A DNA stretch of 63,712 nucleotides, counting the filler, from Reclinomonas americana ATCC 50394 (taxonomy: Eukaryota): assembly GCA_048213135.1 (NCBI GenBank). It is 31 parts of 31 records of this genome, joined end to end, with 100 filler letters (N's around TTAATTAATTAA, not from the genome) between each part and the next. Parts side by side here need not be neighbours in the genome. Positions count along the whole stretch, not along the records: positions 49,883 to 53,691 come from AFZH01024633.1; 30 more parts are not named here. One strand, 5' to 3'. A program made the position numbers and the translations under genes. Of this stretch, positions 15,543 through 57,591 are shown piece by piece (the first letter of the stretch is position 1; every line of letters starts with the position of its first letter). The notes under the pieces were generated by a model. It saw nothing but the letters and a program-made list of their open reading frames with translations. It made no database searches and was not told the origin of the DNA.

Positions 15543-15875
15543 ATGAAGGAGAAGGACAAGCTGTGAGCGGGGGAGAAAGGGGGAGGGAGAAAGAGCACAG
15601 CAGGAAATGGAGGCAGGTGGGGAAGAGAACAGAGGCTGCAAAACAATTTAATGGGCGAGAAACATCAGGTGAAGAACGAGAGGCTACCGAGTAACAGGCT
15701 GGGAAAAATAGAAACCAACGGACGAAGTCGACAACACATGGGCGAGAAAGGATTGACCGCGGCAAACCCACAGGCAACAGGTCAGTAAAGAGATCGAAAA
15801 AAAGCAAGAGCGAGAGAGGCCTATCGCACTCTCTCTAATACAGAAAAATCCAGCGAGGCAGTTGCCATTTTCTTC

Positions 15876-16289
15876 TCACCAACAATGGCTGGGATTAGCG
15901 AGACACCGGTGCATCACAACCTCGGCGTCCTCGACGATGAAGCAGCGCAGCACCAACTCTGGCAGGCACCGCGAATCCAATGCCTCCTCTGTGCTCTCCT
16001 GCATCCGCTGGACAACCTGCATGGCCGAGTGCGCGGTGGCGAGCTCGGAGTGAGCAAGGCCGCTTGGCGTCGGCCACACTCGTATCGTATTGTCGAGGCC
16101 ACCGGCACTCACAATGTGCCGACCGTCGGGGGTGATGGCGACGGACCACACCCAATGCGTGTGCCCATCCATCCGTCGCACTTGCTCTCCACTCGCCAAC
16201 GACCACACTCGCACAGTCTTGTCCTCACTCCCACTCACAGCGTGTTGCCCGTCGGGAGTGACGGCGACACACAAGACAACGGCAGTGTG
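15876..16289 (-). CDS. WD40-repeat protein with conserved C-terminal tail (5' truncated; paralog of 50477-51662)
   Basis: VAVTPDGQHAVSGSEDKTVRVW repeats; tail TPSGLAHSELATAHSAM...DSRCLPELVLRCFIVEDAEVV. Confidence 0.92.
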   Translation of the reverse strand, partial: HTAVVLCVAVTPDGQHAVSGSEDKTVRVWSLASGEQVRRMDGHTHWVWSVAITPDGRHIVSAGGLDNTIRVWPTPSGLAHSELATAHSAMQVVQRMQESTEEALDSRCLPELVLRCFIVEDAEVVMHRCLANPSHCW

Positions 16290-22222: not shown

Positions 22223-22511
22223 NNNNNNNNNNNNNNNNNNNNNNNNNNNNNNNNNNNNNNNNNNNNTTAATTAATTAANNNNNNNNNNNNNNNNNNNNNN
22301 NNNNNNNNNNNNNNNNNNNNNNGGGGAAGGGGAAGGGGGACGGGGTAAGGAGAGGAAGGGGGAAGAGGGAAGGGGGAAGGGGGACGGGGTAAGGGGAGGA
22401 AGGGGGAAGGGGGGAAAGGAGTGAGAGGAGAGCGAGAGGGGGGACAGTGAGAAGGGGGAGAGCGAGAGAAGGAGAGAGCGAGAGGGGGGTAGAGCACACA
22501 CGCTGCGCACA

Positions 22512-25452: not shown

Positions 25453-25734
25453 CTGAGGGAGCGGGGAAAAGTGGAGTGAGGGGAAGGGGGGAGGGAGGGA
25501 GTGAGGGGAAGGGGGAGGGAGGGGAAAGGAGAAGGAGGGAGGGAGGAAGGGGGAAATGCAAGTAGGGTTGTGTACGACAAAACAGGATGTGTAAACACTG
25601 TGTGCGTGCATGGGAGGACGAGGGGGATTAGAGAGGAGGGAGGGGGAGGGCGAGAGGGAGCGAGGCCCCAAGAAAAGGCTCAAGCAATGTGCATGACAAA
25701 GCAAGAATGTGTAACGAGTGGCACAAGAAGGCAA

Positions 25735-26400
25735 ATATAAGAGAGCAATGTGTGCGAGAAACAAAGACAAGGCGAGAGAGTTACAGAACAAGCGGAGTGT
25801 GTGAGAGGGAGGGAGGGACAGCGAGGCAGAGAAGGCAGCAAAGAGGGCAGGAATAGAGCGCCTGAGAGGCAGAGAGAGCAATGTGTGCATGAAGATGGTA
25901 CAAACGAGCGACAAAGACAAGCGAGAGAGTTACTGAACAAGCGGAGTGTGTGAGAGGGAGGGAGGGAGTGAATGACAGAAAGGGAGTGAATGAGAGAGAG
26001 CGCGCGCGCGAGGCAGAGAGAGCCAGAAAGAGAGAGAGGGTGAGAGGAAGACAGCAAAGAGGGCAGGAATAGAGCGCCTGAGAGGCAGAGAGTAGCAATG
26101 TGTGCATGACGATGAAACAAGCGACGAAGACAATGCGAGAATGTAACAGAACAAGTGGAGTGTGTGAGAAGGAGGGAGGGAGTGAGTGACAGAAAGGGAG
26201 TGAATGAGAGAGAGAGCGCGCGCGCAAGGCAGAGAGAGCGAGGCAGAGAGAGTGAGAGGAAGGCAGCAACGAGGGCAGGAACAGAGCATGAAGATGACAT
26301 TAACGAGCGGATACACAGACACAGCAAGAGAGTAACAGAACAAGCGGAGTGTGTGAGAGGGAGAGAGAGGGAGAGAGAGGGAGAGAGAGGGAGAGAGAGG
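25735..26400. repeat. Degenerate tandem repeat inside the Ubc12 intron
   Basis: Blocks ACAGAACAAGCGGAGTGTGTGAGAGGGAG (about 4x) and GCAAAGAGGGCAGGAATAGAGCGCCTGAGAGGCAGAGAG (2x plus a variant). Confidence 0.8.
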
Positions 26401-33904: not shown

Positions 33905-34589
33905 NNNNNNNNNNNNNNNNNNNNNNNNNNNNNNNNNNNNNNNNNNNNTTAATTAATTAANNNNNNNNNNNNNNNNNNNNNNNNNNNNNNNNNNNNNNNN
34001 NNNNGTATCCAAAACATCAACGCCAACACCAATCTTGAGGCAGCAGCAGGTTCCTTGTGTGTTTGTGTTCGCTCTCGGAGCTCCGAACAAGTCGAGAACT
34101 GCGATCTTCACACCGCATGAGTGTGGGCGAACAGTGGATTTGACGCACTTGCATACAGACGCATCATTTTCTGCGATCGTACATGGCACATCGAATTCGA
34201 ATTCGGGAAAAGTCCATAGGCAGGCAAACAAAGCATAGCCGGATTTGGATCCGAGAAGCAGCTGCAGGCAGAGCGACGTCGAAGCAATGGAGGCGTCGTC
34301 ATTGGTGGTGAGGTTGAACAAAAGAAGACGAGCTTTTCGTGTTGTTGGTGAGGCACATATCGGTGGTGGCTGGTACCGCTGCGGTGGTAGGCGCAGTTGT
34401 TGTTGTTGTTGTTGTCATTGTTGTCGCAGCGCTAGCAGTGATTTCAAACACTGTGACGTAGACAGCGTACTGACAGGTGGCCGCACAGCAGGTTGAAACA
34501 AAGGAGAGCCTGTCGTGTTGGTGGTGAGACTCATGTCAGTGGTGGCAAACAAATAAAAAATCCCTTTCACTCCTCACTCCGCCTTATTA

Positions 34590-37540
34590 TTAGCATGCAT
34601 TGGTGTAAATCTTATCCGAACTTGTGGTGACAAACACGCGACCCCCAGACGCACTCATGGCCACATTCTGCACCTCAGCGACATTCAACTCTGTCACCTC
34701 CCACGACACGCCCGCATCGGACGACATCCACAGGCCTCTGAGTTTGCCTCCGACGTAGTTGCCACACACTACGGCGATGTACTTGCCGTCGAAGCTGAGA
34801 GCGACTGATGTCGACAGACAGCCTGTGATGGCTGGGACTCGCGTATACGAGACAGCACCGTCACGGGAAATGTACACAGAGCCACCTAACACAGAATTAT
34901 AAGCAAGAAAAACAATAACCACTGCTCCGTTGCCGCTCACGCCGACGGTGATGAAGTCGAGCTCCAGAGCAGACACCATCGTGGTACCCAAGTCAGTCGT
35001 CCTGTACGCGCCGCCAGTATCGTTGCCGGCGGCATTGGCAACCAAGACCGCCAGTGAGCAGTCATAATTGCACTGCACCGCAGACCAGCGTTGGTTCGGT
35101 TGTGGAGACCGAGTAAATGTCGCTCCGTAATCTGTCGAGACGTAGACACCGTCGCTGTCACAACAGCCACCGTTGGCAGCCGCCATGATCGTTTTCCCGT
35201 CATAACTCATCGTGATACCCACCCAGTTAGCAGTCGGTGCACTTGCGGTCCACGAGTTTCCGCTGTCAGTGGAGATCCAGAGTTGACCATTCTGAACGGC
35301 GGCCGCCAGCACTGTGCCGTCGCTACTCATCGCGAGTGAAACGTACGCTCTGGAGGTAGTCGTTTGCCGAGCCGACCATGTCACGCCACTGTCAGTTGAC
35401 ACATACAGGAAGCCGTTCGCATCGGCAAACAGCTTGGTGCCGTCGACGTTTGATACAATGTGACCCCATGAGAGACTGTTGCCTCGAGCAGTCCACGTTC
35501 GCGGAGTGCAATCACTCCTCGAAATCGATGCCGACGAGGACTCCTGCACCCAGGCACTTCCCATGCTCACCACCTTGATCGAGTACACGGAGGCAGGGGC
35601 AGACTCGTCCAGCCACCGTTGGAACTGTGCTGTGCCTGCTGATTTGACCAGAACACGGAAGCCACCGCCGGCTTGCGGGCCAATGCAAGAGTGCGCGACT
35701 GTGAACTCTCGCCCAATAGCCACCGTCGCGGGATCCGGCAGGGTGATGGTGATTGTAGTGGATGCAGCGGCAGGGAAGCACGAAGACGGCATCACAATGA
35801 GACGAGCGTCGGCGAGAGTTGCCGCGTAGTCAGAGGAGACCGCGCGGGTGGCCAGCGTCACGAAAGTGGTAGAAATCGACGGGACTGAAAGGCTGCCGCA
35901 TGATATCGTGCCAGAAACAGCAAGTGATGTAGATCTGTAGCTTGAATCTGAACGCCCGTCACATTGCCTGAAGTGCTGAGACTGCTGCCCGTCACCACGC
36001 CTGCCGCACTCACTGCGCCGGTCGACACAACACTGCTGGAAACAACACCGCCAGGAGTACTCACACTACCACCTGTCACCACGCCAGTCGTACTCACAGA
36101 GAAGGTTCCAGAAACGTTGAAATTTGTAACATTGATGGTGGTGGCGGATATGCTGTCTGTGACAGTCACTGTCGCGGCTGCGACACTGCCAGACGTGCTG
36201 AAGCTGCCACCCGTCACCAAGCCTGCCGAACTCACAGTGCCAGTCGACAATACGCTGCCAGCAGTCATACTGCCAGAAGTGCTGAGACTACCACCCGTCA
36301 CCACACCCGTCGCGCTCACTGTGCCATTCGACACAACACTGCCAGAAGTCATACTGCCAGAAGTGCTGAAGCTGCTGCCCGCCACGAAGCCTACCGAACT
36401 CACAGTGCCGCCTGAAACCATGCCGCCAGATGCCACACTGCCCGAAGTACTGAGACTGCTGCCCGTCACCAAGCCTGCCGAACTCACAGTGCCACCTGAA
36501 ACCATGCCGCCAGATGCCACACCGCCAGAAGTGCTGAGACTGCTGCCCGTCACCAGGCCTGCCGAACTCACAGTGCCACCTGAAACCATACCGCCAGCAG
36601 CCACACCGCCAGAAGTGCTGAGACTGCTGCCCGTCACCAAGCCTGCCGAACTCACAGTGCCACCTGAAACCATGCCGCCAGCAGTCATACTGCCAGAAGT
36701 GTTGAGGCTGCTGCCAGTAACCACGCCTGCCGTACTCAGCGATGCCATCGAGAATGTGCCAGACACATTCAAATTCGTGGTGTTGATGGTGGCGGCGGAT
36801 ATGCTGTCCGAGACGGTAACCGTCGCAGCTGTGACTTTTCCAGCGGTACTGAAGGTCCCACCGCTTATCGTGCCTTGGGAGCTGACTGAACCGGCGTTAA
36901 CACTTGTTGAGACCGCGAGCACTCCCGTAGTTACTAGACCAGTCGTGTTGAGGCCAGCGGTCGTTATCAGGCCGGTTACGTTCATCGCACGTGCTGTCAG
37001 ATCGCCGTCGATAGTGGCGCCGTCAGCGTGGAGTTCTCGAGTGGTCAGTCTGGAGAAACTCGCAGACTCCAGCGCAGTTGCAACGTCGCGATCGATGCCA
37101 TGCCGAGTCGCGATAATTATCGAACTAATGCCCAAACCGATCAACAAGACTACAATGCCGACGAGCCACGGCCACTTGCGCATGCGCTTGTGCCCGTAAA
37201 TCCTAGGCAGTGCTTCCGGAGCGCGCGGTGCCAACTGAAGCTGCACAAGCAGATCTACATGACCGGGCTGTGCCAATTGCACACTCAGAGCCTGCTGTGC
37301 ACCCGCAGCCTGCTGTGCACCCGCAGCCTGTTGCGCACCCGCAGCCTGCTGTGCACCCGCAGCCTGCTGTGCACCCGCAGCACGCAATGCGCCTGCAGCC
37401 TGCTGTGCGCCTGCAGCCTGCTGTGCGCCTGCAGCCTGCTGTGCGCCTGCAACCTGCGGAACCTGCAGCTGCTCCGCATTTGGTCGCGGCACAAGCGCCT
37501 GTGAATCCGATGTCGGCGGACATGCACTTGATAAGGGCTC
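34590..37540 (-). CDS. Type II membrane fibre-like protein (AGAQQA repeats, TM, Ser/Thr/Gly repeats, ITLP domain, Asp-box propeller), frameshifted near 35930
   Basis: ORFs 35858-37750 and 34590-35861 join if 8 bp at 35928-35940 are removed. TM WPWLVGIVVLLIGLGISSIIIA follows KRMRK. Asp boxes STDSGVTW, STDSGNSW, STDYGATF, SSDAGVSW. True start uncertain. Confidence 0.72.
36370..36712 (-). repeat. 84-bp coding tandem repeat (about 4 copies)
   Basis: 28-aa unit SSLSTSGGVAxGGMVSGGTVSSAGLVTG. Confidence 0.85.
37288..37452 (-). repeat. 18-bp coding tandem repeat (AGAQQA, about 9 copies)
   Basis: GCCTGCTGTGCACCCGCA-type unit on the plus strand. Confidence 0.9.
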
Positions 37541-38114
37541 CACACTGCAGAGGTCAATCACGTCATAAGCGTGACGCAACTCGCTGTGACGATGTCGACT
37601 CGGAGGAAGACACATCCGACGACGGATCCCCCTGAAAACTCCCATCATCGCCGTTGACATTGCATGGTTCCACGCCTCTCTCCACTTCATCGTCCAACGG
37701 AAACTCAATAAACATGGGGATCGGCTGCGCCTTGCACAGATCGCAAACACAGCGTGTCAGATCACGATGCCAGAACTTGCGAGACACAACACAGTGCTCA
37801 ACGTCAAGCCCTCTCGAGAAATATCCGTCAGCTGCAGCCATCGTCACCTCGATCAGTGATCTGTCCAGAAATAGAGTCTGTGCATTGTCAGACGATCAAG
37901 AACGCACATGCACATGTACGCACACACGCACACGCACTCTCATGCACACACACACACACNNNNNNNNNNNNNNNNNNNNNNNNNNNNNNNNNNNNNNNNN
38001 NNNTTAATTAATTAANNNNNNNNNNNNNNNNNNNNNNNNNNNNNNNNNNNNNNNNNNNNCCGCCTCCGTGGCCGGCAGTGGCGCTTGCACCATCGACATG
38101 GAAGGGATGCTTCC

Positions 38115-41855: not shown

Positions 41856-41989
41856 NNNNNNNNNNNNNNNNNNNNNNNNNNNNNNNNNNNNNNNNNNNNT
41901 TAATTAATTAANNNNNNNNNNNNNNNNNNNNNNNNNNNNNNNNNNNNNNNNNNNNGTCGTCTCTTTGTGGTGAGATTTTTCTCTGCAGG

Positions 41990-42598
41990 CATGCTGCTCA
42001 CCTCGTGGAGCAGCACGCGTCGGAGTCGCCACCGGCCACGGCACTGAGAGCATACTACGAACAGTCGCTGGGAGTGCTGATGTACGACATGCCACGCATG
42101 CTCAAGGCCTACGACGCAAATGGCGTGTACCGGGTCTACGACATTACGAACAGCTCTGTGTTGTACTTTGTACGAGTACCTTATGTGCCGGAGGTGGTGG
42201 ATGCGTACCAATCGAGCGTCACTTACTATCGGTACGCGTGTCTCTCTCGCCAACCTGCGCGGTAATCCACATGGTCGCTGATATCCTCACTTCGCAGACA
42301 ACACGGTTACCGAACGGACATTGCCAAGCTCACGTGGTACAAGTTGTCGCAGATCCGACGCAGTTTGCGTGAGGTACACCCCGATGTTTTGTGCGTGCGT
42401 GTGTGGTTGGGAATGACGGTGCGCTGACTCTTGTGTGCTGCAGGCCATGGCGGTCGGCGAATTGCACGGCGTGTGTGTGGGCTGTGAACGCTCGCATCGC
42501 GAGCATGCGTTGCTCGGTCGGCCACTGGCGGAGGTGCTGGCCGTGGCAGAGGTTTGTCGGGGAGACTTCTTTCCCTTGCTTATATCGGCAACTCACTG
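41990..42598 (+). CDS. Eukaryotic hypothetical protein, 3' exons
   Basis: Spliceable ORFs (LRAYYEQSLGVLMYDMPRMLKAY..., GYRTDIAKLTWYKL...) convergent on GlyRS. Confidence 0.4.
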
Positions 42599-42897
42599 AT
42601 TGTTGGTGATGACGTAGGAGGGTGGCATTCTGCAAGCACTCGAGGTTTCAATTGGGTCTCACGGGCAGCTGCAGGGCAGTGTGGAGTACACATAGCGTGC
42701 GTGTGTGGAGGCTAGTGCTTACTTTTTTGGGGGGTATAGATTTATGTGTATCGAGTGGAATTTGTTGTTGGTGTGTGTGTGTGTGTGTGTGTGAGGAGGT
42801 TGAAGCGAAGAAGAATAAGTGTGGAGTGATGGCGGTTGTCACTCTTTCGTCTTCCGTCCTTTTTTTAAAAAAATTGAAAGCGTTGTTTGTTGGGCAA

Positions 42898-44882
42898 CTA
42901 TGCGGGATACAGGGCGGCCCAGTTGCGCGAACGCACCACGGCCAGCAGTTCGTCTATCGTGATTCGCTTCTGGGTCATGGAGTCTCGCTCGCGCACAGTG
43001 ACGCTATTGTCGGCGAGGCTCTCAAAATCGACGGTGACACAGAACGGGGTGCCGATCTCATCCTGCCGCCGGTATCGCTTGCCAATCGATTGTGTCACGT
43101 CAAAGTCGGTGCGCACCACGTCGACCATGGACTGGAAGAGTGAATTCGACAGCTGCACCAGCGGCTGAGCCATAGGGGCGGTCGACAGCAAGTGAGTGAG
43201 GCAGACGGTAACGAATCTCCACATCATTCACCCTGCCTTGCCAAACCTCTTTCTTGGAGAGCGGCAGCACGGCAAACTGGAACGGAGCGACCTCGGGGCG
43301 GAGGCAGAGTCGGATGCGACTGGTGCCGTCTTTGGAGGCCTCGACTTGGTCGACTCGGTACGCATCCAGCAGAGTGGCGTACAGCAGCCTGCACGCATGT
43401 TTTGTCCCCGCTCAGTTCAACTACAGACGCAACTCGTGACCGCTGCTACTCACCGATCGAGTCCAACCGCAGGTTCGATGCAGTGCGGATAGAACGGCTC
43501 ACTAGTGGCACCGGAGCGGAAGCGCAGATCCTGACCCGAGTGCGTCGCGTGCGCCTTCAGGTCGTAATCGGTGCGATTCGCAATGCCCCACAGTTCGCCC
43601 CATCCCCACGAGAACAAGAACTCAATGTCCGTGGTGCCCGCCGAGTAGTGCGCCACCTCCTGCACACAATCACATGCACGCGCACGTACGTGAGTGCGGT
43701 GACGCCTTGCCACCTACTCTCGTGCAACGCAACTCCAGGGCCGAATTCACGCATCCGGAAGCTCTCCGGCCGCAGGCCCACCACGTTCTTCAACCAATCC
43801 ACACAGAACGTGATCCAATACCGATACCATGTGGGCGACGACTCGGGCGCACAAAAGTACTCCATCTCCATCTGCTCAAACTCACGCGTGCGGAAGAGCA
43901 AGTGTCCCGGCGAGATCTCGTTGCGGAACGAGCGACCGGTCTGCGCCATGCCAAACGGCAGCTGCGGTCGCTCCGTCTGCACCAAGTCCGCAAAGTGTGT
44001 AAACATGCCTTGCGCCGTCTCCGGGCGCAGCGGCAGCACATCACTCGAGTCCTCGGTGCAGCCGAAACGCGTCTCAAACAGCAAGTTGAACAGGCGTGGC
44101 GGAGACAACTGGCACTTGTTGGCCTTTGCATCGCCGCACCCGCCGTGCAAGTCACGCGAGCGTGCAGCATCCACAAAGAACTCACGGAACTCGTCCAGCG
44201 AGAGACCGGCAATCTTCTTGCCGGCCTCGTCGCCCAGTTGCTCCTCCACCAGCTTGTCTGCACGCGACCGGCGACCGCATGTCTTGCACTCGACCAGTGG
44301 ATCGGTAAAGTGCTCAATGTGGCCGGTTGCCTCCCACACTGCATGGGGCGGAAGTGAGACACGCAGCAGCAGCAGTGTCACATGCTTAAAGGAAACGCAC
44401 CCTTGCGCGACATCAAAATGCACGTCTCCACGCCGTACACATCGGGTCTGCGCTCCACAAAGTGTCGCCACCACAAGTCACGCAGGTTCTTCTTCATCTG
44501 CGTACCTGCGCGGTGTCTCGAGAGAGTCAGAAGGGACAGGGAGAGAGAGAGAGTGTCTGTGATGCGATGTATGCATGCTTGTGTGTACCCAGCGGGCCAT
44601 AATCAATCAGGCTCTCCACGCCACCGTAGATGCTGCTGTTGGCCATCACAAAGCCGCGGCGACGCAAGAGTCGTTCCACGGCTCCTGGTCCCTCGGCAGC
44701 CATCTTATCGTCGCCCTGCGTGCACACAAAGCACATTGCTGATTACATGCATGCACAACTCACTCGCGCTGTGTACTCTCTCTTACACTGACCACTGAAG
44801 CTGAGGGTAATGAGGTCGACCATCGCGCAGTGACAGGTGGCGAGAACAGTAAGCGCCCTCCACGGCGTGCAAGCAGCAGCAT
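42898..44882 (-). CDS. Mitochondrion-targeted glycyl-tRNA synthetase of bacterial alpha2 (GlyQS) type, intron-containing
   Basis: Exon 1 (44882-44787) [27 protein letters not shown]; then IYGG...[83 protein letters not shown] introns. Confidence 0.92.
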
Positions 44883-45148
44883 TCGTCGAGAGCACCCAAG
44901 AGGACAAGCAAGACTGATTTCAGCGTTTTTGTGTTTACTACTCTCTCACTCTCACTCTCTCTCACTCGCTCGTTTTCCTCATTCTTGTTGGTTATTCGAC
45001 AATCACCGGCAAAAACAGTCATCCACTCCACACATACACACATGCAGACTCGCCTCACCCACATAGAACCAGATATACAAAATCACACACGATGCAGCTG
45101 GATAGACGCCTGCTAAGTGCCGACAAGTGCGCAACGTGGTGCCAACTA

Positions 45149-45827
45149 TTATGCGACGTAATGGTAGAGACTCGAATCTGTGACGAGCGGGCACGCAGTC
45201 AGCAAAAAAATGAGGAGAACCCGCACACAAGCGCACACACACGCACCAGAGTCATCACGCCGCAGGAACTCGCGCAGAATGAGGTCCTCGATACGAGTCT
45301 TGACTTGGCGCGGCTGTGGCCTGAACAGGTTGAGCTGCTGCAGGGTCTCCGCCACCAGCGCCTGATGGGAGAGCGTTCGTCGGGCCTTCATCACACGCAC
45401 AATGCAGGCGTCAATCATGTAGCGCCGCTCCTGCTCACGCTCCTCCGGCTGACCGCCAGGCCCAGCCTTCTTCACCGTGATCTTCGGCAGCGGGATGCTG
45501 ATCTTCAGTCGCTTGGTCTCGAACGCCTCGTTGAATACAACAGTCTCCTCCGCGCCCAGATTCTTGGCGCTGTTGATGCGCGTCAGGATCTGGAACTTGC
45601 CGGCACACAGACCCATGATGGCGCGCTTGACTTCGTCGAGCGGGATTCTGCAAGCGACAGGGCGGTCACAAAACGAGTGCACGCAGCGAGCGACGGCAAC
45701 GACGACGACGACGACGCAACTGTGTCATCTCGTGAATCTGCTGTACAGTGAGCTCGGCGTGCGTGTTGAAGAGGAGGCACACGGATGCTTGGTGACCCGT
45801 CATGGACAACTCGCGCTTGCCAATGGT
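45149..45827 (-). CDS. Cullin, C-terminal neddylation domain (5' truncated)
   Basis: ERRYMIDACIVRVMKARRTLSHQAL...KTRIEDLILREFLRRD...YHYVA*; two introns. Confidence 0.93.
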
Positions 45828-45927: not shown

Positions 45928-47768
45928 ATCCAAGGGTCTCAAGGGCGACAAGGGCGACGAGGGCAAGGTGTGTGGCGAAACGTAATGAGGTTCAGTGTCA
46001 ATGGTGATATTCATCGCTGGTGCATTTGCAGCCTGGTGTGAAGGGAGACAAGGGATCGAAGGGCCTGAAGGGCGACAAGGGATCGAAGGGCTTGAAGGGA
46101 GACAAGGGATCGAAGGGTCTGAAGGGCGACAAGGGATCCAAGGGCATGAAGGGCGATAAGGGAGACAAGGGTGCCGACGGCAAGGACGGCAAGGATGGCA
46201 AGGTTGGCGTACTTACTATCGTCCGACAGTTGATGCATGCTATCTCATTCTCTTCTCGTCATAGCCGGGCACCAAGGGATCCAAGGGCTCTCATGGCGTG
46301 CCGGTGAGTCCGCCGCCGTCATTTCTCACCCGTGATTTTCCGGAACTCATGTGTGGGTTGTGCGATACAGAGCTTTGGATTGCGATGCTTGAACGCGTCG
46401 CTGTCGATGAAGGAGCCTCGCTGTGAACCGACAATTGTCCAGTGCCCTGCTGGTGCGTCTATTATTCCAGTTTGCGACTATGGTGGGCATCGATCGTGCT
46501 CATCGTCATATGCAGGCACTGTGGTCACTGGCGGCGGCATCATTAACCACCTGCGCGAGTTCTCCGATCGGTGTGTTGGCGTCGCGTTCCTCTTCCAGCG
46601 TACGCCAACGATCACTAATTGTGTGTCACTGTTGCAGGTCGGTGCTAATGGACAGCAAGCCGTACGAAAACGGATGGAAGTGCCAAGTGTGAGTCGGCAG
46701 AAGAAGAAAAGTAGATATTTGTATTGTAGACCGATGCCTAACGATTCGTGTGCGTGCGTGCTTGTTCTCGCCTGTGCATGCGCAGTGGCATCAGCGGCGG
46801 CAAGTGGTCTTGCTTCGCTCGGTGCTGCCGACTGCCGAAGGACACTATTGTCGTGACTGCGCAAGGTGATTCTGATGCCTCCGGCAAGTCGGTGGCCAAT
46901 TGCCCAAGCGGTTACCAGGTGCGTCATATTTTGTGTTTGTGCCAGATGGATGTGTGGGTTGTGGTGAATGCTGAACGGACAACCGCGACATGTACGCAGG
47001 CGCTTGGCGGCGGTATCTCGATCGGCACCAGTGGCCTGCAGGGACAGCCGCTGGATCGGTTCGCGTACAGCGAGTCGCGTCCCAAGAGCGACAGCAGCGG
47101 ATGGCAGTGCAAGGTCGGCCTGCCAGGTGCGTTGTATAGTCAGCAAGCAATCGTGGGTGTTGCAGAGCGCATGCAGAAGCTGACTACGTGGATTGTGGAT
47201 GTGTCTGCAGGAACCACGCCTGCGCCGTCGTGGTGCTTTGCTCGATGCGCCAAGTTCCCGTGCGCACGCAAGGTCGAAGTGGTGAGTGGTGCTGGCGAGA
47301 TTGCGACCTGTGTGTGCCAATATCTGCACATGCATGCCTGCGGCTCACTGTTGCATGTGGCGACACACGCAGGTGCAAGTGGACGCGCCAGAGGCCGACA
47401 CGTTGCGCGTGTCGTGTCCGACTGGATCGACGATGGTTGGCGGCGGTTCGCAGTACGATGCTGGCAAGGGAGCTTGCAATGGTTTGTTGCCTTTTCTGAG
47501 GAGGAGTATTGAGGTTGTGAGTTTGTTTGCTGATGCGTGCAAAGCAGGCACCAACGTGTTCGAGGAATCGTTCCCCGAGTTGTCGAACACTTGGCGGTGT
47601 GACATGTTGCGTGTGGTGTGCTGGTGTTGTTGCTTCCATGGAAAGGCAATGTGTGTTGACATGAGCTGTGTGTGCAGGGCACTGGATACCGGTCGCGCAC
47701 TGTCGTGCTTCGCGTCGTGCGTGCACGCGGAGGGCTCGCAGGGTATCCCTGATCTCGTTGTCGAGTAA
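45928..47768 (+). CDS. Collagen-like protein with three Cys-containing C-terminal repeats (5' truncated, multi-exon)
   Basis: Gly-X-Y (GDKGSKGLK)n exons; then CPAG|TVVTGGG...SKPYENGWKC, CPSGYQ|ALGGG...SRPKSDSSGWQC and CPTGSTMVGGG...SFPELSNTWRC; stop at 47766-47768. Confidence 0.8.
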
Positions 47769-48635: not shown

Positions 48636-49627
48636 GGTGGAGCGAACGGCAGTTGCGCGTTCATCGCGGGGGCGGGGACGGATGCCGTCGCGGCGGCATC
48701 CGCGTTCTCGGCGAGCAGGCGCTCGTCACGCCACCGCGCCCACTGGTCGAACTTCGTCAGCAGCGCACCGACGGCACCGAACAGCCACGCCCAGGTCGCG
48801 GGGTCGAGCGTCGACACCTTGCGCTGCGTGTAGAGGAAGAGCCAGTCGTCGACGATCTCGACGTCGAGCTGGGCGGCGTTGTCGATGAACCGCGCCATGA
48901 TGTCGGGCGTGAACAGATAGAGCGCGTCGCGCTCGTATCCCGCGGGGCAGTACAGCGTGAAGTACCGGTCGAAGTCGCCCTCGAGCGAGAGGCGCTGCTC
49001 CTTCTCGAACGACGCGGGCAGGTTCGATCCGAAGCTGTTGTTGCCGTTCGCGTCGAGGACAATGTTCGGGAGCGGCACGTCGAGCTTCACCGCCACGTAC
49101 CCCCAGCGGTAGGTCGTCGAGTTCTTCCCCGACTGCACCGTGTACTGGTAGTTGCCGAACTCGACGAAGCGCGGGCGGGTGCCGCGGACGAGGTCGGTCG
49201 ACTGGCGGGAGCGGCCGAGGCTGAAGATCATGCCGGGCAGCAGCGGATCGGCGATCTTCGCCTCGTACGACATGCCGTTCGCCTGGGCGAAGCGGCTCAG
49301 CCGGTAGCGCGTGGCCTGGGCGTTCCGTACGCCGAGCCAGATCATCAGGACGACCGCGACCAGGACCAGGCCGATGAGCACCAGCGGGATCACTGCGATC
49401 CCGGGCGAGCCGCTCGCCGACGCCAGGCTGAGGAACACCGTCACGATGATCGGCAGCACCACGATGCCGGCGACCGACGCGGCCACGATGCCGATGATCG
49501 TCGACGTCGAGGCGCTCGTCGACTGCCGTGCTCGCAGCTCGGCGGTGAAAGCCCGGACGGCCGCGGAGTCGACCGGGTCGGTGAGCGGCCGGGCGTCGAA
49601 GGTGATCGGGGGCTGCGGCGCGGTCAT
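48636..49627 (-). CDS. Actinobacterial membrane protein (DUF3137-like, 3' truncated)
   Basis: Two TM helices, then LSLEGDFDRYFTLYCP.GYERDALYLFTPD. Confidence 0.7.
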
Positions 49628-49782
49628 CGGTTCACCTGGTCGGCGTCCCAGGTCAGGTCGGTGCCCTCCGGGATCTGCACCGCCTCGAGGCGGTCGTCGG
49701 CGCAGATCTCGTGGATGAGAGCATCCGGCCCCGCCACGATCGTGGAGTCGAAGTCGATCTCGGACACCATCACCCACGAGCG
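49624..49782 (-). CDS. Actinobacterial hypothetical protein, C-terminus
   Basis: SWVMVSEIDFDSTIVAG...DLTWDADQVNR*; ATGA overlap with the next gene. Confidence 0.6.
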   Translation of the reverse strand, partial: RSWVMVSEIDFDSTIVAGPDALIHEICADDRLEAVQIPEGTDLTWDADQVNR

Positions 49783-49883
49783 NNNNNNNNNNNNNNNNNN
49801 NNNNNNNNNNNNNNNNNNNNNNNNNNTTAATTAATTAANNNNNNNNNNNNNNNNNNNNNNNNNNNNNNNNNNNNNNNNNNNNC

Positions 49884-50462
49884 ACCGACCGACTGTGAGT
49901 GTGATTGAAGGCATGAGGCATTGATTGTGACTTGGGGGAGGGGAGGCGAGCCTCACGACGCAGCTGCCTCGTCCATCGATGTGTACGTGCTACTGTACTG
50001 GTCGCTCCTCTCCTGTTCCCTGTGACTCTCCTTCTTCGTCGTACCATCGTGACGTGCACCTCGTCAACTTCGCTGTGGGCCGAGCCAAGGAGATGTGAGG
50101 TGTCGCTGACTCGCTCGCTTCGCTGCTCAATTGATTCTCGTGTGTGCCGTGGCATCAGCTGCACATCCAAGCAGCCCGACATGCCAGTCCTCGTTGAGAG
50201 ATAATGCAGGGCAGTAGAAAGAGAGTGTCGCTGGACAGCAGCGCGATGCAGTGGAGCGCCACCTTGTGTCGCCAGCATGTCCATGCTGCCGATTTCGCAC
50301 CGACAAGTCCCATGTCAGTCTTCGAAAGCCCACGCGCATCAAAGAGCCACATCGCACACACTACCGCATGATGTGTGGAGTGCTGGTTGCAGCCCGGCGA
50401 GGGATGGACGACGTCTCAGAGCAAGGCGGGTAACAGTGACAATCCCGAGCGAGCAAATCACA
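49884..50462 (+). repeat. Copy 1 of a ~580-bp non-coding direct repeat (upstream region of WD40 gene)
   Basis: Starts ACCGACCGACTGTGAGT.TGATTGAAGGCATGAGGCATTG, ends AACAGTGACAATCC.GAGCGAGCAAATCAC. Confidence 0.9.
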
Positions 50463-50476
50463 CATACACACGGAGA

Positions 50477-51662
50477 ATGGCAACAAAGGTGTGAATGTGT
50501 GCGCACTTTTGCGTGGTTGGTGTCTGTGCGTGCATTATATTCGTGTGATCGTGCGTGTGTGTGGTTGCTGTTTGCGTTGCTGTGCATGTGCGTGTCTTTG
50601 AATGCCTCTCCACGTGCGTCTCATCACGAGTGATCGGCACAGATCATTCAGAGTCCCGCTGCTGTGCGGTCCGTCGCTGTCACTCCCGATGGCGAACACA
50701 TTGTTGGTGGATGCATGGACAGCACCGTTCGAATGTGGTCTCTGGCGAGTGGGGAAGAAGTGCGAAGGTTCAAGGGGCACGCTGGCAGGGTGTTCTCTGT
50801 CGCAGTCACTCTTGATGGTCAGCTTATTGTCAGTGGCGGTGGAGACTGTACCGTGCGTGTGTGGTTGCTGGAGAGTGGGATGGAGGTGCGACGGCTGGAG
50901 GGACACTCCCGGGAGGTGTGGTCAGTCGCCGTCACGCCTGATTGTCAGCACGTTGTCAGCGGTGGCTACGATCAGACAGTGCGAGTGTGGTCACTGGCGA
51001 GTGGCGAGGAGGTGCGACGGATTGAAGGACACGCCAACATGGTGTGGTCAGTCGCCGTCACCCCAGATGGTAAACACGTTGTGAGTGGGGGTGGAGACAA
51101 CACAGTGCGGGTATGGTTGCTGGCGAGCGGCGAAGAAGTGCGGCGGTTGGAGGGACACACTTCCTGGGTGCAGTCTGTCGCTGTCACCCCCGATGGTCAG
51201 CACATCGTGAGTGGCTGTAGGGACAAAACGGTGAGAGTGTGGTTGCTGGCGAGCGGGGAGGAAGTGCGACGGTTGGAGGGACATGCTTCATGGGTGTATT
51301 GTGTCGCCGTCACTCCCGATGGCCAGCACATCATTAGCGGGAGTGAGGACAGCACCATTAGGGTATGGTCTCTGGCGAGTGGCGATGAAGTACGACGGTT
51401 GGAGGGACACACTGAATGGGTGTCGTCTGTTGCCGTCTCTCCCGATGGTCAGCACATTGTCAGTGCGGGTGGCTACGACAAGACCGTGAGAGTGTGGTCT
51501 ACACCGCGTGGCCTCGCTCGTCTCGAACTCGACGCCGCGCGCTCCGCCATGCAGGCTGTGCAGGAGATGCAGGAGGAAGAAGTAGATTCGCGATGCCTTC
51601 CCGAGCTGGTTCTGCGCTGTTTCATCGTCGAAGATGCCGAGGTTGTCCCTTTCCGGTGCTGA
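50477..51662 (+). CDS. 7-repeat WD40 protein with SOCS-box-like C-terminal tail
   Basis: Exon 1 50477-50488 (MATK), phase-0 intron, exon 2 50643-51662; seven 42-aa repeats; tail STPRGLARLELDAARSAM...DSRCLPELVLRCF. Confidence 0.9.
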
Positions 51663-53107
51663 GAAGGTGAGCCGAAGGGAGAAGGTGGCTGCTGGAGAAT
51701 GTGAGTTGTTTTTCTTGTTGTGCGAGGGAGAATGGGTGGTTGTTCATGGTGCAGGTGGGGAAAGAGGACGACAGAGGAAGAGAGAGAGGTCGTTGATGAT
51801 GAATTGTTCTCTGTGTTTGTTCCCCTTTCATGTGAATGATAGTCTGCGGCCGTGAATGATGTCTCCCTCTGTGTGCGTATCTCTTTCTCACCTCCATTTT
51901 GTGAGCAAGCTCGATGAATCACCTGGGAGTCTCTTGCGTTTTTTTGTCTTGTTGTATGTCTGTTGTGCGTGCATCTTCCGTCGTTCGTGTTTGTGCCTCA
52001 GGAGAGCGAGTCGCCGTTGTCTATTTCCTCGCGTCTTCTTTTGCGCACCACTTTGGCATCACTGCTCTGCTTCCCATTGTGCCTGTGCGCCGTGGGCATT
52101 CTCCTTCCGGCTCTGAAGAATGCATGTCATCCCGCTCTCCCTCTTTCATGTCCCTTGCAGAGTCTCTCTCTCTCTCTCTTTCTCCACCGCCTCCCTCCTT
52201 TATGCGCTTATCTGCTTCCTCAGTCGTCCACTCCTCCTTGCCGCACAAGCTCGAGGCCGAGCATGCTGGTCTGCTCACCGTTTTCCGACTGCCATTCTGC
52301 CGTCGAGTTGGTCAGTCCATCATGGTGAGCTTCCCGATGCCGAAGTGTGTGAGGTGACATGACTGCAGACTGACTCCGCTCTCCCCCTATTGAAGGATGG
52401 TTGTGTGTGCAGAAGCTTCCCTCGGCTTGCCTCTTGACCAAACGCGTGTTGGCATCAGGTGCTGATCGGTGTGTTTGTCAGTGAGACAGAGCAGATATCT
52501 ATCTCCTACCTCCATTCTTCGCTCACAGTGTACCGACATGCAGGCACCTTTAGGGCAGGTCCCCCTCGTTGTTCCGTAATGATTGCAGGCGTGCTGTGCA
52601 GCGCCCGCTGCCGGCTGTCACCTCACTAAGTCGGCTCCCCACTCGCATCTTACCAATGCTCGAAGCAGGTGTGTGACCTTGTTCGTCTTGATCGCTCTTC
52701 TCTCCTTCCCTTTACTCACCCCATTCATGCAGGTCGTGCAGGCCATGGAGTTCGTGGCTTGGTGGGTGTACACATGCGCGCGTGCCGTGATGTGCGATGG
52801 TGGCCTGGTTGGTGGATCGTTTTCAATCCCGGCTGGCAAGTCGGAGCAGATCGATGATGTGCGCACGTTGGTTGCTGCTCTCACCGCCGAGTGACCATGA
52901 TGGTGGCCATGGGAGACTGCAGACACGCGCAAGGCCTGCAACACATGCATGGGACGTGCGTGTTCTACTCCTGCGTTGAGAAACATTATGGCGAGACTTG
53001 GAGATTGACCGACTCCATTCCGTGTGTGACCAGAGCACCGGCGCGTTGGCAAGTGACTGGCATGCAAAGACACGTGGTATGCCTCACAGTACATTCATGA
53101 GACGATT

Positions 53108-53682
53108 ACCGACCGACTGTGAGTATGATTGAAGGCATGAGGCATTGATTGTGAGTTGGGTGAGGGGAGGCGAGTCTCACGACCCAACTGCCTCTTCCAT
53201 CGCTGTGCTGCTGTACTGGTCGCTCCTCTCCTGTTCCCTGTGACTCTCGTACTTCATTGTCTCGCCTCAACTTCGCGGTGGACCGATCCAAGGAGTCGAT
53301 GACTCGAGCTCGGTGCTCATTGGATTCTCGAGTGTGCTGTGCACATGTGGCTTCAGCACAGCTGGACCACAGCTGCATATCCAAGCAGCCCGACATTCCA
53401 ATCCTCGTTGGCAGAGAATGCTGGCCGGTCTCGATGCAATGGAGCGCCAACCTCGTGTCACCACCACCACCTTGCGCATGCATGACGTCCATTCTGCCCA
53501 TATCGCGAGTCCCATGTCGGTCTTCGAAAGCCCACACGCATCAAAGAATCCACATTGCTCTCATACTGCTGATGCTGTGCGGGGTGCTGGTTGCAGCCTG
53601 GCGAGGGATGGACGACGTCTCAGAGCAAGGCGGGAGAAGAAAGGCGGGAAACAGTGACAATCCTGAGCGAGCAAATCACGCA
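53108..53682 (+). repeat. Copy 2 of the ~580-bp direct repeat
   Basis: Same start and end motifs as 49884-50462, with substitutions and indels; about 3.22 kb downstream. Confidence 0.9.
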
Positions 53683-53849
53683 CCACCCTCTNNNNNNNNN
53701 NNNNNNNNNNNNNNNNNNNNNNNNNNNNNNNNNNNTTAATTAATTAANNNNNNNNNNNNNNNNNNNNNNNNNNNNNNNNNNNNNNNNNNNNAAGCAGTGC
53801 ACCAATAGTGGTCACAATGCCGCCGCTGTTCAAGCCGCCAGAGCTCACC

Positions 53850-56800
53850 AACCGCCTTGCAGCGAACCCACAGTCGTCACACTGCGGTAGCGCGACGACG
53901 GCTTGATCGTCTGGAACAGCTGCACGCAAGTGCCGGCAATGGCCGGGTTGGTGCCACTGCCGAGCACAGCAGTGTTCATGCCCAGACCGTCAGCGGCGGC
54001 CGCGCGGGTTGCCAGTTGACGCCAGGAAGCGGGTCGTCCACTGCCAGTACACCAGGTAGTAGGTGGCGGCCGCAGTCGTGCCCGAGCCGACCGCAGTCCA
54101 CGACACGCGGTACTCGTTGGCGGCGTAGAAGTTCAGCGACGGAGAGCCAGCAGCCGGCACAATGCCAGTCGTGGTCACCGGCGACGCCTGGATGTAGATC
54201 GACAGCGAGTTGTTGCCCGTGCCAATCGAGTTGGTCGCGTTGAGGAAGAAGCGGTAGAAGTTGCCGTTCACCACCGTCACAGACGCCGTGGTGTCGGTGG
54301 CACCCAACGCGACAGTCGGGCTGTAGTCGTAGCCGACGCACCAGTCAGCGACTGGGCAGAAATGGCAGTCGACGCGCCAGTGGCGGTCGTCCACGAGAAC
54401 GCAATCGCCGTGCCAGTGTTGCTGGTCACCGCAAAGTTGGGCTGGTCATTCGGCACCTGGCCCGTCAGCACGTTGTTGTTGAGGCCGTTGCCGATGATGC
54501 CGTCACCGAAGGTGGCCAGAGTGGTCGACGTGCCAATGCCGTTGATGCCGCGCACATCGATGAAGTAGTTGGTGGCGTCGGTGAGGCCGCGGATCACAGC
54601 CTGCTGCACCGACGTGGTGTTCTGCGTCAGCGTGCTGGCCGTAGCCGCGCGCCACGACACCTGCCACTGGGTCACGAAGCCCTGGCCGCCAGTCTCCTGC
54701 GGCTGTCCCCAGCTGAGCCAGATCGAGGTCGAACGCTTGAGCAGAAGGTTCGACGACAGCGACGTGATGCCGCCTGGGCGCTGCGGCGACGTGGCCGTGG
54801 TGATGGTGATGGCCGTCGCAGACCAGGCAGTCTGGTAGCCGTTGAACGACGCCACGCCAATGCGGTACTTGGTGTTGGAGGTCAGGCCATTCACCAGCAG
54901 CGACGAGGTGGTCGAGCCGAGCGAGCCAGTGAACTGAGTCACATGTACAAACGAGTCCGGCACGAAAGTGGTCGAGGTGACGTTGGTCAGGTTCTGCACC
55001 AGCACCTGCACGCCGACATAGTTGTTGAAGCCGTCCGACGTGGTCAGCGAGTACGTATACTGCGTGCCGATCACCGTCGACGGGGTCGACAGCGTGAAGG
55101 TGGTGTAGCCGGAGCCAGTCGTGCCAGCCGAGCCGCCAGTGGTCAGAGCCGGCAGCGGGTACGGGCGCACAATCGAGTTGGCAATCTGCGGCAGAGTGCC
55201 CGACTGAGCACCGCTCTGCGTCGAGGTCACACCAGAGTCCGAGCGGGTGTTGGTGGCCTGCACGGCGTAGGTGTACGACTTGCCCGGAATGGTCGGGAAC
55301 GAGAAGTTGGTGGTCAGCGTCGTCCACGTGTAGGTGCGGTTGCAGTTGCTGGTGTTCTGCGTCACAACGTAGCCGTTGATCGAGGTGCCACCAATGCCAA
55401 TCGGCGATGCCCACGAGATGCTGGTGATGGTGTCCTGGTAGCAGTTGCCAGAGAAGCCCACACCGAGGGTACCAGCCACAGCAGCGCAGCCGGCGCTCGA
55501 GTTGGTGCCGTGCGAGGTCGCAATACCTCCAGTAAGCGTCGGGGCGGCGGGGGCGATCGGAGTATCGTCTGTGGTGGGAGAAGGGAGGCGGTGGATGAGA
55601 TACTGATATTCAAAAAAGCACATGTCTCCCTGTCACGCTCTCTTTCTCTCTCTCTCACCCTCTCCCTCTCCATCAATCTCAACCCCCTTCCCCTTTCCCC
55701 TTCAACAACGCAACTGCTGTTGTGAGTGGTCCGAGTGATCGGACCAGCAGCAGTGGCCGAGTTGGTCGACGTGGCAGTGGCGTACACCTGGTACGTATAC
55801 GTGTACGACGTGTTGGCCGTCAGCGTCGTGTCGGCAGTGTAAGCGGCGGTGGTCGCCCAGCCAGCCGGCAGGGTCACCGTGCCCACAGACACCGGGGTCG
55901 CGCTGCCCTGGCCGCGGAAGATCGTGAACACCGTCACGGCGTTGGAGCCAAAGTTCTGCGGAATCGTCCACTGCAGGAAGATGTTGGTGAGGCCGTACTG
56001 CGTCACGACCAGGCTGGTCGGCGGGTTCGGCACGACACCGGTGGCAGCCGGAGTGGTGAAGTTGATCGACGAGCTGAACACGCACGTCACCGGGTTGGCG
56101 GCAGTGCCAGCCGGGTTGAAGGGCGAGGTCGGGAAGGCGATCGAGAACTGGTTGCTGGCGCAGATCTGCAGGTTGACCGAGGTGCCAGCCGGCAGGCCAG
56201 TCACGTCAATGTAGTAGGTCGACAGGTTGCTGTTCCACGATCCAGTGCCAGTGCCGTTGGTGGACGGGATGGAGCTGGTGTCAATGTTGGTGGCAGTGCC
56301 GGCAGTGGCCGAGGTCACCGACGAGGCGCGCGCTGGTGGTGTAGTACGTCACACGGTAGTTGGGGACGCTCGGGGTCGGCGTCGTCAGGTTGCTCTGCGA
56401 GCCGTTCGAGGTGGCAGTGTTGGAGCCGCCGACGCTGATCGGAGTCGAGAAGTTGAGGCGCACGCCAGGCGCGAGTACGCCACACCAGTGGGCGCAGCCG
56501 GCACCGCACCATTGTTGTCGGTGGTGGCCTGGATGGAGCCAGCCGACGAGGCACTGGTGTTGTTGTTCACAGTGAACTTGGCCTTGACCGTGTACTGCGT
56601 GGCAGCCACAAAGTTGTTGGCGGTGCCGCTCACAGTGAAGCCGGTGATCTGCTGGTAGAAGCCAGAGTTGTACGAGAACAAGCCGTGGAACGAGGTGGCG
56701 ATGTTGCCGTTGCCAGTCGCGCCGGTGGTGATGGCAGGCTGGTCAGAGCTGGCGTTGGTCACCGTGTAGGCGGCGGTCGGCGCAGCGCCAGTGTCGCCCG

Positions 56801-57591
56801 TGCCAAAGGTGGCCGGGTAGTTGAAGGCGACGACAAACGACGTCGAAGTGACCTGGTCCACAGAGCCAGTGTACGGGGTCACAGTGTAGCCTGTCGGCGT
56901 GGCCGGCGCACCCGACGCCAGGGTCACCGTCACGGGTCAGGTTGTCACCGTTGGCACCCGGAGTGCCGCTGCCGTTGTTGTAGGTCGTCGAGATGGCGCA
57001 GCTAGCTGGTGCCAGTCAGACCAGTGACCTTGACAAGCACGCGGTTGCGCGACAGACCGGAGCTACCGGCCGGGATGCCGAAGTCGGTCAGGTCGGCAAT
57101 GGTGGTGACCACAGTCACCGCACCGGTGCCGCAGTCCGACTTGATCATGACGTACCACGAGGCAGCGCCAATCACACCCACGTTGGCCGCCACACCCTCC
57201 CACTCCACCCACGTTGAGGTCGACGTAATGTAGCGCAGAGTGGACGACAGCGTCGGCGCCGCAGTCGAAACCTTGGTGGCATCCGAGCCGCTGGTGGTCA
57301 GAGTGCCGCTCCAGGGAACAGCCGAGCGGTTCACCTGCGACTCAGTCCACACATTGATGGTGCAGCCCTGGCCAGTGGTGGCGTTGGTGGCCAGAGTCAC
57401 ACCGCGCCACGTGCCAGACGACACGGTGGTGTCGGTCACAGTTGTGGGACCAGCGTCGCCCACCAAGAATGGGCGGTCGGCAGTGGTGCCGGTGGCGAGG
57501 TTGGTTGTGTCAATGTCCTGGAACTGGTTGGCGCCAGTGCCGACAGAGCCGTTGGTGGAGAGACCACCCTGGCCGACGAGGTCAGCCGGCA
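53850..57591 (-). pseudogene. Giant Thr/Ser/Gly-rich fibronectin type III repeat protein with multiple frameshifts
   Basis: FN3 motifs (WxxP, GL...T.Y...V...N..G) in successive frames; frame changes near 57003, 56934, 56472, 56328, 54361 and 54030; one phase-1 intron at ~55571-55714. Confidence 0.72.

What the first reader, a model, noticed from the sequence alone, without database searches (positions are those of the whole stretch)
50477..51662. WD40 propeller with homogenised repeats and hypervariable top-face positions: candidate diversifying receptor
Seen: seven 126-bp repeats with a near-invariant scaffold EVRRLEGH---V-SVAVTPDGQHIVSG--D-TVRVW-LASG. Variation concentrates after GH (AGRVF, SREVW, ANMVW, TSWVQ, ASWVY, TEWVS) and before D (CM, GG, GY, GG, CR, SE, GY). 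Established: fungal HET-E/HNWD non-self receptors show this pattern of concerted evolution plus diversification at these ligand-facing positions. Unlike them, this protein appears complete (MATK start exon) with no NACHT domain. Inference: a stand-alone variable recognition family, possibly innate immunity against viruses or intracellular bacteria.
Basis: partly seen in the sequence, partly recalled or inferred. Interest (0 to 1): 0.8.

Follow-up and report, generated by a model that had tools for sequence, protein, structure and literature searches.

The report
Ordinary stand-alone WD40 propeller gene
This is a normal seven-bladed WD40 propeller gene from a protist, probably a jakobid; its blades look alike because selection preserves the fold, not because they were recently copied, and nothing marks it as an immune receptor.

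Summary
The repeats are real. There are six full 126-bp units plus one N-terminal partial unit (TRF; Pfam WD40 x7, E 1.5e-81), and they fold as a complete seven-bladed propeller.

The repeats are not homogenised. Units are only 66-77% identical in DNA. Synonymous divergence on the scaffold is near saturation (dS 0.66-1.69) while dN is 0.04-0.22. No conversion tracts are visible. At the variable codons, non-synonymous change does not exceed synonymous change, within the gene or against a paralog.

The same entropy profile appears in 42 unrelated WD40 proteins (Spearman 0.79). It is also described in print for highly repetitive WD40s (PMC5587647).

The gene does look complete without a NACHT domain. 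It has a four-codon first exon, a 154-nt GT-AG intron, and a full-length relative that starts at the propeller.

One thing is new but minor: a conserved C-terminal box under purifying selection. It is shared with a window paralog, a Reclinomonas americana EST and one metagenomic propeller. A second gene unit follows in tandem.

The parts
49883..50476 (+). Non-coding upstream region (promoter/5'UTR) of gene unit A; starts at the contig's first base
   Evidence: Aligns in conserved blocks to 53107-53691 with indels that are not multiples of 3; no credible ORF
50477..50488 (+). Putative exon 1: four codons beginning with ATG
   Evidence: First ATG in its frame after an in-frame stop about 35 codons upstream; followed by GT. 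Inferred; no cDNA
50489..50642 (+). Putative 154-nt GT...CAG intron, TG-rich
   Evidence: Donor and acceptor printed; in-frame TGA at 50631-50633 closes the propeller ORF upstream; same splice-site style as the GlyRS introns on contig 41956-45827
50643..50759 (+). Partial WD40 unit 0 (strands a-c of blade 1)
   Evidence: strands 8-13, 19-24, 28-33 in the models
50760..51518 (+). Six full WD40 units (42 codons each; the last has one extra codon)
   Evidence: TRF period 126; Pfam WD40 x7; unit table
51519..51662 (+). C-terminal tail of 47 residues plus stop; two low-confidence helices
   Evidence: dN 0.16 / dS 0.84 versus the paralog; pLDDT 31-62; no Pfam or PDB match
51585..51647 (+). Conserved C-terminal box (D-[SR]-R-C-L-P-E-[LM]-[VI]-L-R-C-F-[IL]-V-E-[DE]...)
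   Evidence: Invariant columns in the four-sequence tail alignment; the profile finds P0241 at E 2.4e-21 and P0243 at E 6.3e-4 among 1.84 billion representatives
53107..53691 (+). Second copy of the upstream region: start of a tandem gene unit B, cut by the contig end
   Evidence: Direct-repeat blocks at 85-95% identity, spacing 3202-3224; alignment
15876..16289 (-). Paralog fragment on another contig: last two blades, tail and stop
   Evidence: tblastn 72% over 129 aa; translation; dS 0.96 versus the main gene

Best explanation
This is a complete, stand-alone seven-bladed WD40 beta-propeller of about 343 residues. It is encoded by a two-exon gene of an intron-bearing protist, probably a jakobid, on a 3.8-kb contig of a fragmented assembly that also carries bacterial contigs. 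The blades are old repeats kept alike in protein sequence by purifying selection on the fold. The residues that differ from blade to blade lie in the d-a loop, at the start of strand a and in the b-c turn. These are the ordinary top-face positions that together make one asymmetric binding surface for a partner. A conserved C-terminal helical box, also under purifying selection, most likely provides a second, family-wide interface. The protein would then act as an adaptor that brings a blade-specified ligand to a shared partner. The gene sits in a tandem pair and has at least one older paralog. Paralogs differ mainly on the top face, which would suggest different ligands. Shown: anatomy, fold, age of the repeats, selection regime, family members. 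Inferred: exon 1 and the intron, the adaptor mechanism, the role of the box.
For: - WD40 x7, E 1.5e-81.
- AlphaFold2 with a four-sequence alignment gives all five models at pLDDT 86.9-89.2, with propeller blocks at 93-98.
- The nearest solved folds are the PkwA WD40 domain 5yzv (E 1.3e-30, 41% identity), designed 7-bladed WRAP-T, the 'highly repetitive propeller' 2ymu, and WDR5.
- Between repeats, scaffold dS is 0.66-1.69 and dN 0.04-0.22.
- Against the paralog, the scaffold has dN 0.11 / dS 1.2 and the tail dN 0.16 / dS 0.84.
- Variable positions map to the d-a loop and b-c turn in the DSSP strings.
- 42 generic WD40 hits show the same entropy profile (Spearman 0.79, shared top positions 8, 9, 10, 12, 28, 30), and 15 of the 42 are at least as internally alike.
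- Hu et al. 2017 (PMC5587647, passages read) describe conserved repeats with diverse hotspot sites.
- Between paralogs, top-face positions differ at 9 of 14 sites against 13 of 64 elsewhere (Fisher p 0.002).
- The tail box is shared with a Reclinomonas americana EST product and with P0243.
- The organism has short introns.
Against: - No transcript evidence exists for exon 1 or the intron. No sequencing run could be listed.
- The 154-nt intron is longer than the two GlyRS introns I measured by eye (83 and 62 nt).
- No partner is known.
- The box matches no Pfam family or solved structure and is modelled at low confidence.
- Omega near 1 at top-face codons rests on 16 codons and saturated distances, so episodic positive selection is not excluded.
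- The assignment to a jakobid rests on one EST relative at 68% identity, not on a marker gene.
- The control set was chosen by likeness to this protein, and 78 of its 120 hits were dropped for having fewer than five full repeats.
Confidence: 0.7

Rival explanations
1. One reading: a stand-alone, diversifying recognition family. Repeats would be homogenised by conversion and top-face residues driven apart by positive selection, serving innate immunity in the manner of fungal HET-E/HNWD.
For: The variable positions correspond to the HNWD selected pairs that flank the conserved V and D (PMC1805685, passages read). Paralogs differ preferentially on the top face. A tandem second unit has an upstream region diverged by only about 10%.
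Against: Units are 66-77% identical in DNA with dS about 1, whereas HNWD repeats reach up to 100% identity. There are no conversion-like tracts. Non-synonymous change does not exceed synonymous change. The pattern is generic to WD40 proteins. There is no NACHT or other effector domain. Only four sequences carry the box across all collections searched.
Confidence: 0.07
2. A substrate receptor of a ubiquitin ligase. The propeller would bind the substrate, and the C-terminal two-helix box would dock onto an adaptor, in the manner of WD40-SOCS-box (WSB) or F-box/WD40 proteins.
For: The architecture is a propeller plus a short conserved C-terminal box containing an L-P-E-hydrophobic motif. The box is predicted as two helices and is under purifying selection. 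The likeness to SOCS or F-box motifs is recalled, not computed.
Against: No F-box or SOCS_box Pfam match even at E up to 10. The tail profile gives only chance-level PDB hits, the best being ribosomal eL34 at E 0.34. By eye the motif spacing does not fit the BC-box or Cul5-box consensus. The ESM Atlas gives nothing above 0.76.
Confidence: 0.15
3. A truncated or dead gene. There would be no intron, and the ORF would simply lack a start because it is a decayed copy in a repeat-rich region.
For: Without splicing, the first in-frame ATG lies inside blade 1. The contig is short and flanked by a repeated segment.
Against: The 339-codon frame is intact, with strong purifying selection against the paralog. 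A well-placed ATG, GT and CAG restore a start in frame. P0243 starts at the same place. A relative is expressed as an EST in Reclinomonas americana.
Confidence: 0.05

Closest known systems
Highly or moderately repetitive WD40 proteins of prokaryotes, protists and fungi (Hu et al. 2017, PMC5587647), e.g. Thermomonospora curvata PkwA WD40 domain (5yzv) and the Nostoc 'highly repetitive propeller' (2ymu)
   Same: Idealised 42-residue repeats with a near-invariant scaffold and diverse top-face hotspot positions. Internal identity is about 0.70. These are the best fold matches, and the best sequence hits are up to 59% identical.
   Different: The paper reads high internal identity as young duplication, but here synonymous sites between repeats are near saturation. 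This protein also carries a conserved C-terminal box that none of the hits cover (coverage about 83%).
Fungal HET-E/HET-D/HNWD NLRs (Paoletti et al. 2007, PMC1805685; Chevanne et al. 2010, PMC2873952, listing only)
   Same: WD40 repeats of 42 residues whose most variable positions flank the conserved V in the d-a loop and the conserved D in the b-c turn.
   Different: No NACHT or HET domain. Repeats are 66-77% identical in DNA rather than up to 100%. No evidence of conversion or of positive selection.
Gcp1-Gcp3, the WD40 proteins that co-occur with the mitochondrial T2SS in jakobids and heteroloboseans (Horvathova et al. 2021, PMC8134430)
   Same: WD40 proteins without N-terminal domains, present in jakobids including Reclinomonas.
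   Different: Those are Pex7-like (passages read). The box motif occurs 0 times in the six supplementary files held, which list the Gsp and Gcp sequences.
WD40-SOCS-box (WSB) and F-box/WD40 substrate receptors
   Same: A propeller plus a short helical adaptor box. In WSB the box is C-terminal (recalled).
   Different: No profile match to either box.

Membership tests
WD40 repeat beta-propeller (Pfam PF00400) | Several WD40 repeats scoring above the gathering threshold | tested here: met
   265.8 bits against a cutoff of 27; seven stretches
WD40 repeat beta-propeller (Pfam PF00400) | Closed seven-bladed four-stranded propeller fold | tested here: met
   27 strands plus a short N-terminal bridge; pLDDT 93-98 over residues 1-289; TM 0.82/0.96 to 5yzv
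Highly-Repetitive WD40 (Hu et al. 2017) | Internal repeat identity of at least 0.7 | tested here: inconclusive
   Mean 0.692-0.697 over six full units by my own count. This sits on the border, and their counting method differs.
Highly-Repetitive WD40 (Hu et al. 2017) | Recent repeat duplication (low dS between repeats) | tested here: not met
   dS 0.66-1.69 on the scaffold
Fungal HNWD / HET-E NLR | N-terminal effector plus NACHT NTPase domain | tested here: not met
   Only WD40-type Pfam hits. The upstream 590 nt is non-coding. Homolog P0243 starts at the propeller. The tail profile found no long form among 1.84 billion representatives.
Fungal HNWD / HET-E NLR | Repeats nearly identical in DNA through concerted evolution | tested here: not met
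   66-77% nucleotide identity; longest exact run 21 nt, reached by 469 of 2000 shuffles
Fungal HNWD / HET-E NLR | Positive selection at top-face codons | tested here: inconclusive
   pN 0.57 against pS 0.67 between repeats; dN 0.57 against dS 0.53 versus the paralog, 16 codons. No excess, but distances are saturated and the sample is small.
Fungal HNWD / HET-E NLR | Repeat-number polymorphism and repeat shuffling among paralogs or strains | not testable with these tools
   No genome held and no runs listed
SOCS-box / F-box substrate receptors | Profile match to SOCS_box or F-box in the non-propeller part | tested here: not met
   At E up to 10 the tail matches only RRM_1, at E 0.11; the PDB profile search gives chance-level hits
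Gcp1-3 (miT2SS-associated WD40) | Orthology to the published Gcp1-3 sequences | tested here: inconclusive
   Only a motif look-up was done: 0 occurrences of the box in the six supplementary files. The paper calls these proteins Pex7-like.

The most novel reading that the evidence does not exclude
This could be a jakobid-lineage family of stand-alone propellers, amplified in tandem. The paralogs would keep one conserved C-terminal docking box while diverging mostly on the ligand-binding top face. That would make it a modular recognition set, with many specificities and one output, that works without any NLR-type NTPase. It could serve in prey, symbiont or virus sensing, or in substrate selection for a single effector complex.
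Probability: 0.08. Interest if true: 0.6.

Novelty: new member of a known kind. Interest (0 to 1): 0.2.

Why it matters
Mostly as a caution. Blade-to-blade variation at top-face positions inside a single WD40 protein is the normal way a propeller builds a binding site. It is not evidence of diversifying selection; that needs comparison of the same blade across alleles or recent copies.

The small positive result is an undescribed, selectively maintained C-terminal box. It defines a rare propeller family seen so far only here, in a Reclinomonas americana EST and in one unnamed assembly. If the tandem array proves large, it would be a tractable case for asking how protists diversify adaptor specificity.

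Tried and rejected
- **Whole genome:** none is held. The nearest genome, G001, is a bacterium that matches the neighbouring high-GC contig 48636-49782 at 97%. It does not match the WD40 protein, its upstream DNA, or contig 53792-57591.
- **Sequencing runs:** none was listed, and no RNA holder was listed.
- **Earlier findings of the scan:** nothing by place or by sequence.
- **Rfam and tRNA scans of the window:** nothing.
- **Organism identity via the GlyRS fragment:** best hits are only 40-47% identical and mostly unnamed, which is uninformative.
- **Whole-protein homolog search:** 1770 generic WD40 hits, best identity 59%, none covering the tail.
- **Tail region against 186-594-aa proteins:** 41 candidates, none at E of 0.01 or better.
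- **Tail profile in prokaryote genome contigs and JGI metagenome contigs:** 42 and 184 pattern matches, none confirmed.
- **P0242:** an internally repeated 357-aa protein hit over 21 residues in six stretches. I set it aside as spurious.
- **ESM Atlas on the tail:** best score 0.76, below the level of a lead.
- **PDB profile search on the tail:** chance-level hits only.
- **Gcp1-3 identity:** considered and not supported.
- **Bacterial origin of the contig:** rejected on the introns in sister contigs, the jakobid EST relative and the GC class.
- **Region 51663-53106:** holds no convincing ORF.

Full report
**Setting**

The window is not one stretch of genome. It is 31 short contigs (1.0-4.1 kb) joined by spacers of N-runs around a stop-codon linker, and the contigs fall into two GC classes. 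The high-GC class looks bacterial: contig 48636-49782 matches the held bacterial genome G001 at 97% over its whole length. The finding lies on contig 49883-53691 (3809 bp, GC 0.566), which is in the lower-GC class. G001 has neither the protein nor its upstream DNA. No whole genome is held for the window.

The lower-GC class is eukaryotic. A glycyl-tRNA synthetase gene on contig 41956-45827 is broken into at least five homology blocks in different frames. I read these as separated by short GT...CAG introns; the two I measured by eye are 83 and 62 nt.

**Check of the observation**

- TRF reports a 126-bp period over 50730-51498 (6.1 copies, 73% matches).
- The frame is open from just after a TGA at 50631-50633 to the stop at 51660-51662.
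- It encodes one partial and six full 42-residue WD40 units; the last unit has one extra codon.
- Pfam scores seven WD40 stretches at E 1.5e-81.
Entropy peaks at unit positions 8, 9, 10, 12, 27, 28, 30, and also at 41.
- In the AlphaFold2 models, positions 8-10 lie in the d-a loop, 12 at the start of strand a, and 27-30 around the b-c turn. That places them on the top face. Position 41 lies in the bottom c-d loop (DSSP strings).

So the anatomy is confirmed.

**'Homogenised' is not confirmed**

- Across the 15 unit pairs, nucleotide identity is 66-77% (mean 71%) and amino-acid identity 60-79% (mean 69%).
- By Nei-Gojobori counting, the 34 scaffold codons have dS 0.66-1.69 and dN 0.04-0.22.
- The eight variable codons are saturated for both classes, with mean pS 0.67 and pN 0.57.
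- The longest exact in-register match between any two units is 21 nt, which 469 of 2000 shuffles of the mismatch positions reach.

The repeats are therefore old. They are kept alike by selection on the protein, not by recent conversion. In HNWD genes, by contrast, repeats reach up to 100% identity within and between genes (PMC1805685, passages read).

**Is the variable-position pattern special?**

I built a profile from the six units. With it I cut repeats out of the 120 listed hits of the homolog search, which are mostly bacterial and metagenomic WD40 proteins. Forty-two hits had at least five full repeats; 78 were dropped for having fewer.

- Their mean within-protein entropy profile correlates with this protein's at Spearman 0.79.
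- The top variable positions are shared: 8, 9, 10, 12, 28, 30.
- 15 of the 42 are at least as internally alike as this protein.

The control set was chosen by likeness to the query, so it shows the pattern is common in this class, not in all WD40s. Hu et al. 2017 describe the same thing for 'Highly-Repetitive' WD40 proteins of prokaryotes, protists and fungi: conserved repeats with diverse hotspot sites (PMC5587647, passages read). Differences between blades within one protein are how a propeller builds one asymmetric binding face. They are not polymorphism.

**Comparison across copies**

A paralog fragment lies at the end of contig 14287-16289 on the minus strand. It holds the last two blades, the tail and the stop. 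Over 126 aligned codons, dS is 0.96 and dN 0.18.

| Codon class | Codons | dN | dS |
|---|---|---|---|
| Scaffold | 63 | 0.11 | 1.2 |
| Variable | 16 | 0.57 | 0.53 |
| Tail | 47 | 0.16 | 0.84 |

(All.)

Top-face positions differ at 9 of 14 sites against 13 of 64 elsewhere in the two blades (Fisher p 0.002). With the Reclinomonas sequence added for the last blade, the counts are 5 of 7 against 11 of 35 (p 0.085). Top-face residues therefore evolve about as fast as silent sites, and much faster than the scaffold, but not faster than neutral. This fits relaxed or shifting constraint. It does not show positive selection, and with saturated distances it cannot exclude it.

**Gene structure**

- Without splicing, the first in-frame ATG falls inside blade 1.
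- The ATG at 50477 is followed by three codons and a GT. The intron would be 50489-50642 (154 nt), ending in CAG and joining in frame.
- That ATG is the first in its frame after a stop about 35 codons upstream.
- The 590 nt before it recur at 53107-53691 in blocks of 85-95% identity, with indels that are not multiples of three. This is non-coding DNA heading a second, tandem gene unit about 3.2 kb downstream, cut off by the contig end.
- Nothing convincing is encoded in 51663-53106.
- The full-length relative P0243 starts a few residues before the first strand of blade 1.
- With a four-sequence alignment, all five models fold residues 1-289 as a closed seven-bladed propeller at pLDDT 93-98. 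In the single-sequence run only the best of five models was good.

The 'complete, no NACHT' claim is thus supported, though the first exon remains inferred.

**The tail**

The last 47 residues match no Pfam family and no solved structure. A two-sequence tail profile, run over 1.84 billion representative proteins, found three hits at E of 0.001 or better:

- P0241 (116 aa, E 2.4e-21). This is the product of a Reclinomonas americana EST in EukProt. It is 68% identical to this protein and 64% to the paralog.
- P0243 (381 aa, E 6.3e-4). This is a divergent propeller with low internal repetition that ends in the same box.
- P0242, a spurious repetitive protein.

Further searches for the box found nothing. 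The box is predicted as two helices at low confidence.

Conservation of the box across a highly repetitive and a non-repetitive propeller, with omega about 0.2, argues that it is a functional second interface. Its partner is unknown. A likeness to SOCS or F-box docking motifs is only a recalled resemblance, and no profile supports it.

**Organism**

The EST relative points to a jakobid. Jakobids are grown on bacteria, which would explain the bacterial contigs; that statement is my own knowledge. PMC8134430 mentions partial R. americana genome assemblies. The Gcp1-3 WD40 proteins described there are Pex7-like and lack the box in the supplementary files held. The organism assignment remains an inference.

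**Verdict**

This is a real but ordinary stand-alone WD40 propeller of the idealised-repeat class, and a new member of a known kind. The reading of homogenisation plus diversification, and the link to immunity, do not. The one unrecorded feature is the conserved C-terminal box, together with the tandem arrangement.

Noticed in passing
window 1-63712: The window is 31 short contigs joined by N44-TTAATTAATTAA-N44 spacers. There are two GC classes: about 0.63-0.69 and about 0.55-0.61. Contig 48636-49782 is 97% identical to the held bacterial genome G001. Contig 53792-57591 (GC 0.636) is not found there.
   Followed up: partly
window 41956-45827 (minus strand): A glycyl-tRNA synthetase gene split by several short GT...CAG introns. 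Its best database relatives are only 40-47% identical, so the eukaryote has no close sequenced relative in the protein collection.
   Followed up: partly
window 34005-37959 (minus strand): Long ORFs with a Sortilin/Vps10-type (BNR-like) propeller stretch (Pfam E 4e-12). The contig also has coding-looking tandem repeats of 84 bp x6.6 (36183-36738) and 18 bp x9.4 (37289-37457).
   Followed up: no
window 46039-46171: A 27-bp / 9-bp tandem repeat that would read as Gly-X-Y (collagen-like) triplets in one frame.
   Followed up: no
window 6687-8159: An ORF open at both contig ends, with a legume-lectin-like domain and a Laminin_G_3 domain (Pfam). At GC 0.596 its origin, eukaryote or bacterium, is unclear.
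   Followed up: no
P0243 (protein from an unnamed Logan assembly): A 381-aa propeller with low internal repeat similarity. It ends in the same C-terminal box as the window protein, so the box is not tied to the idealised-repeat type of propeller.
   Followed up: partly
window 12819-12979, 15029-15089, 22323-22495, 25473-25567, 26355-26400: Many GA/TC-rich low-complexity tracts lie in the lower-GC contigs, often between ORFs.
   Followed up: no
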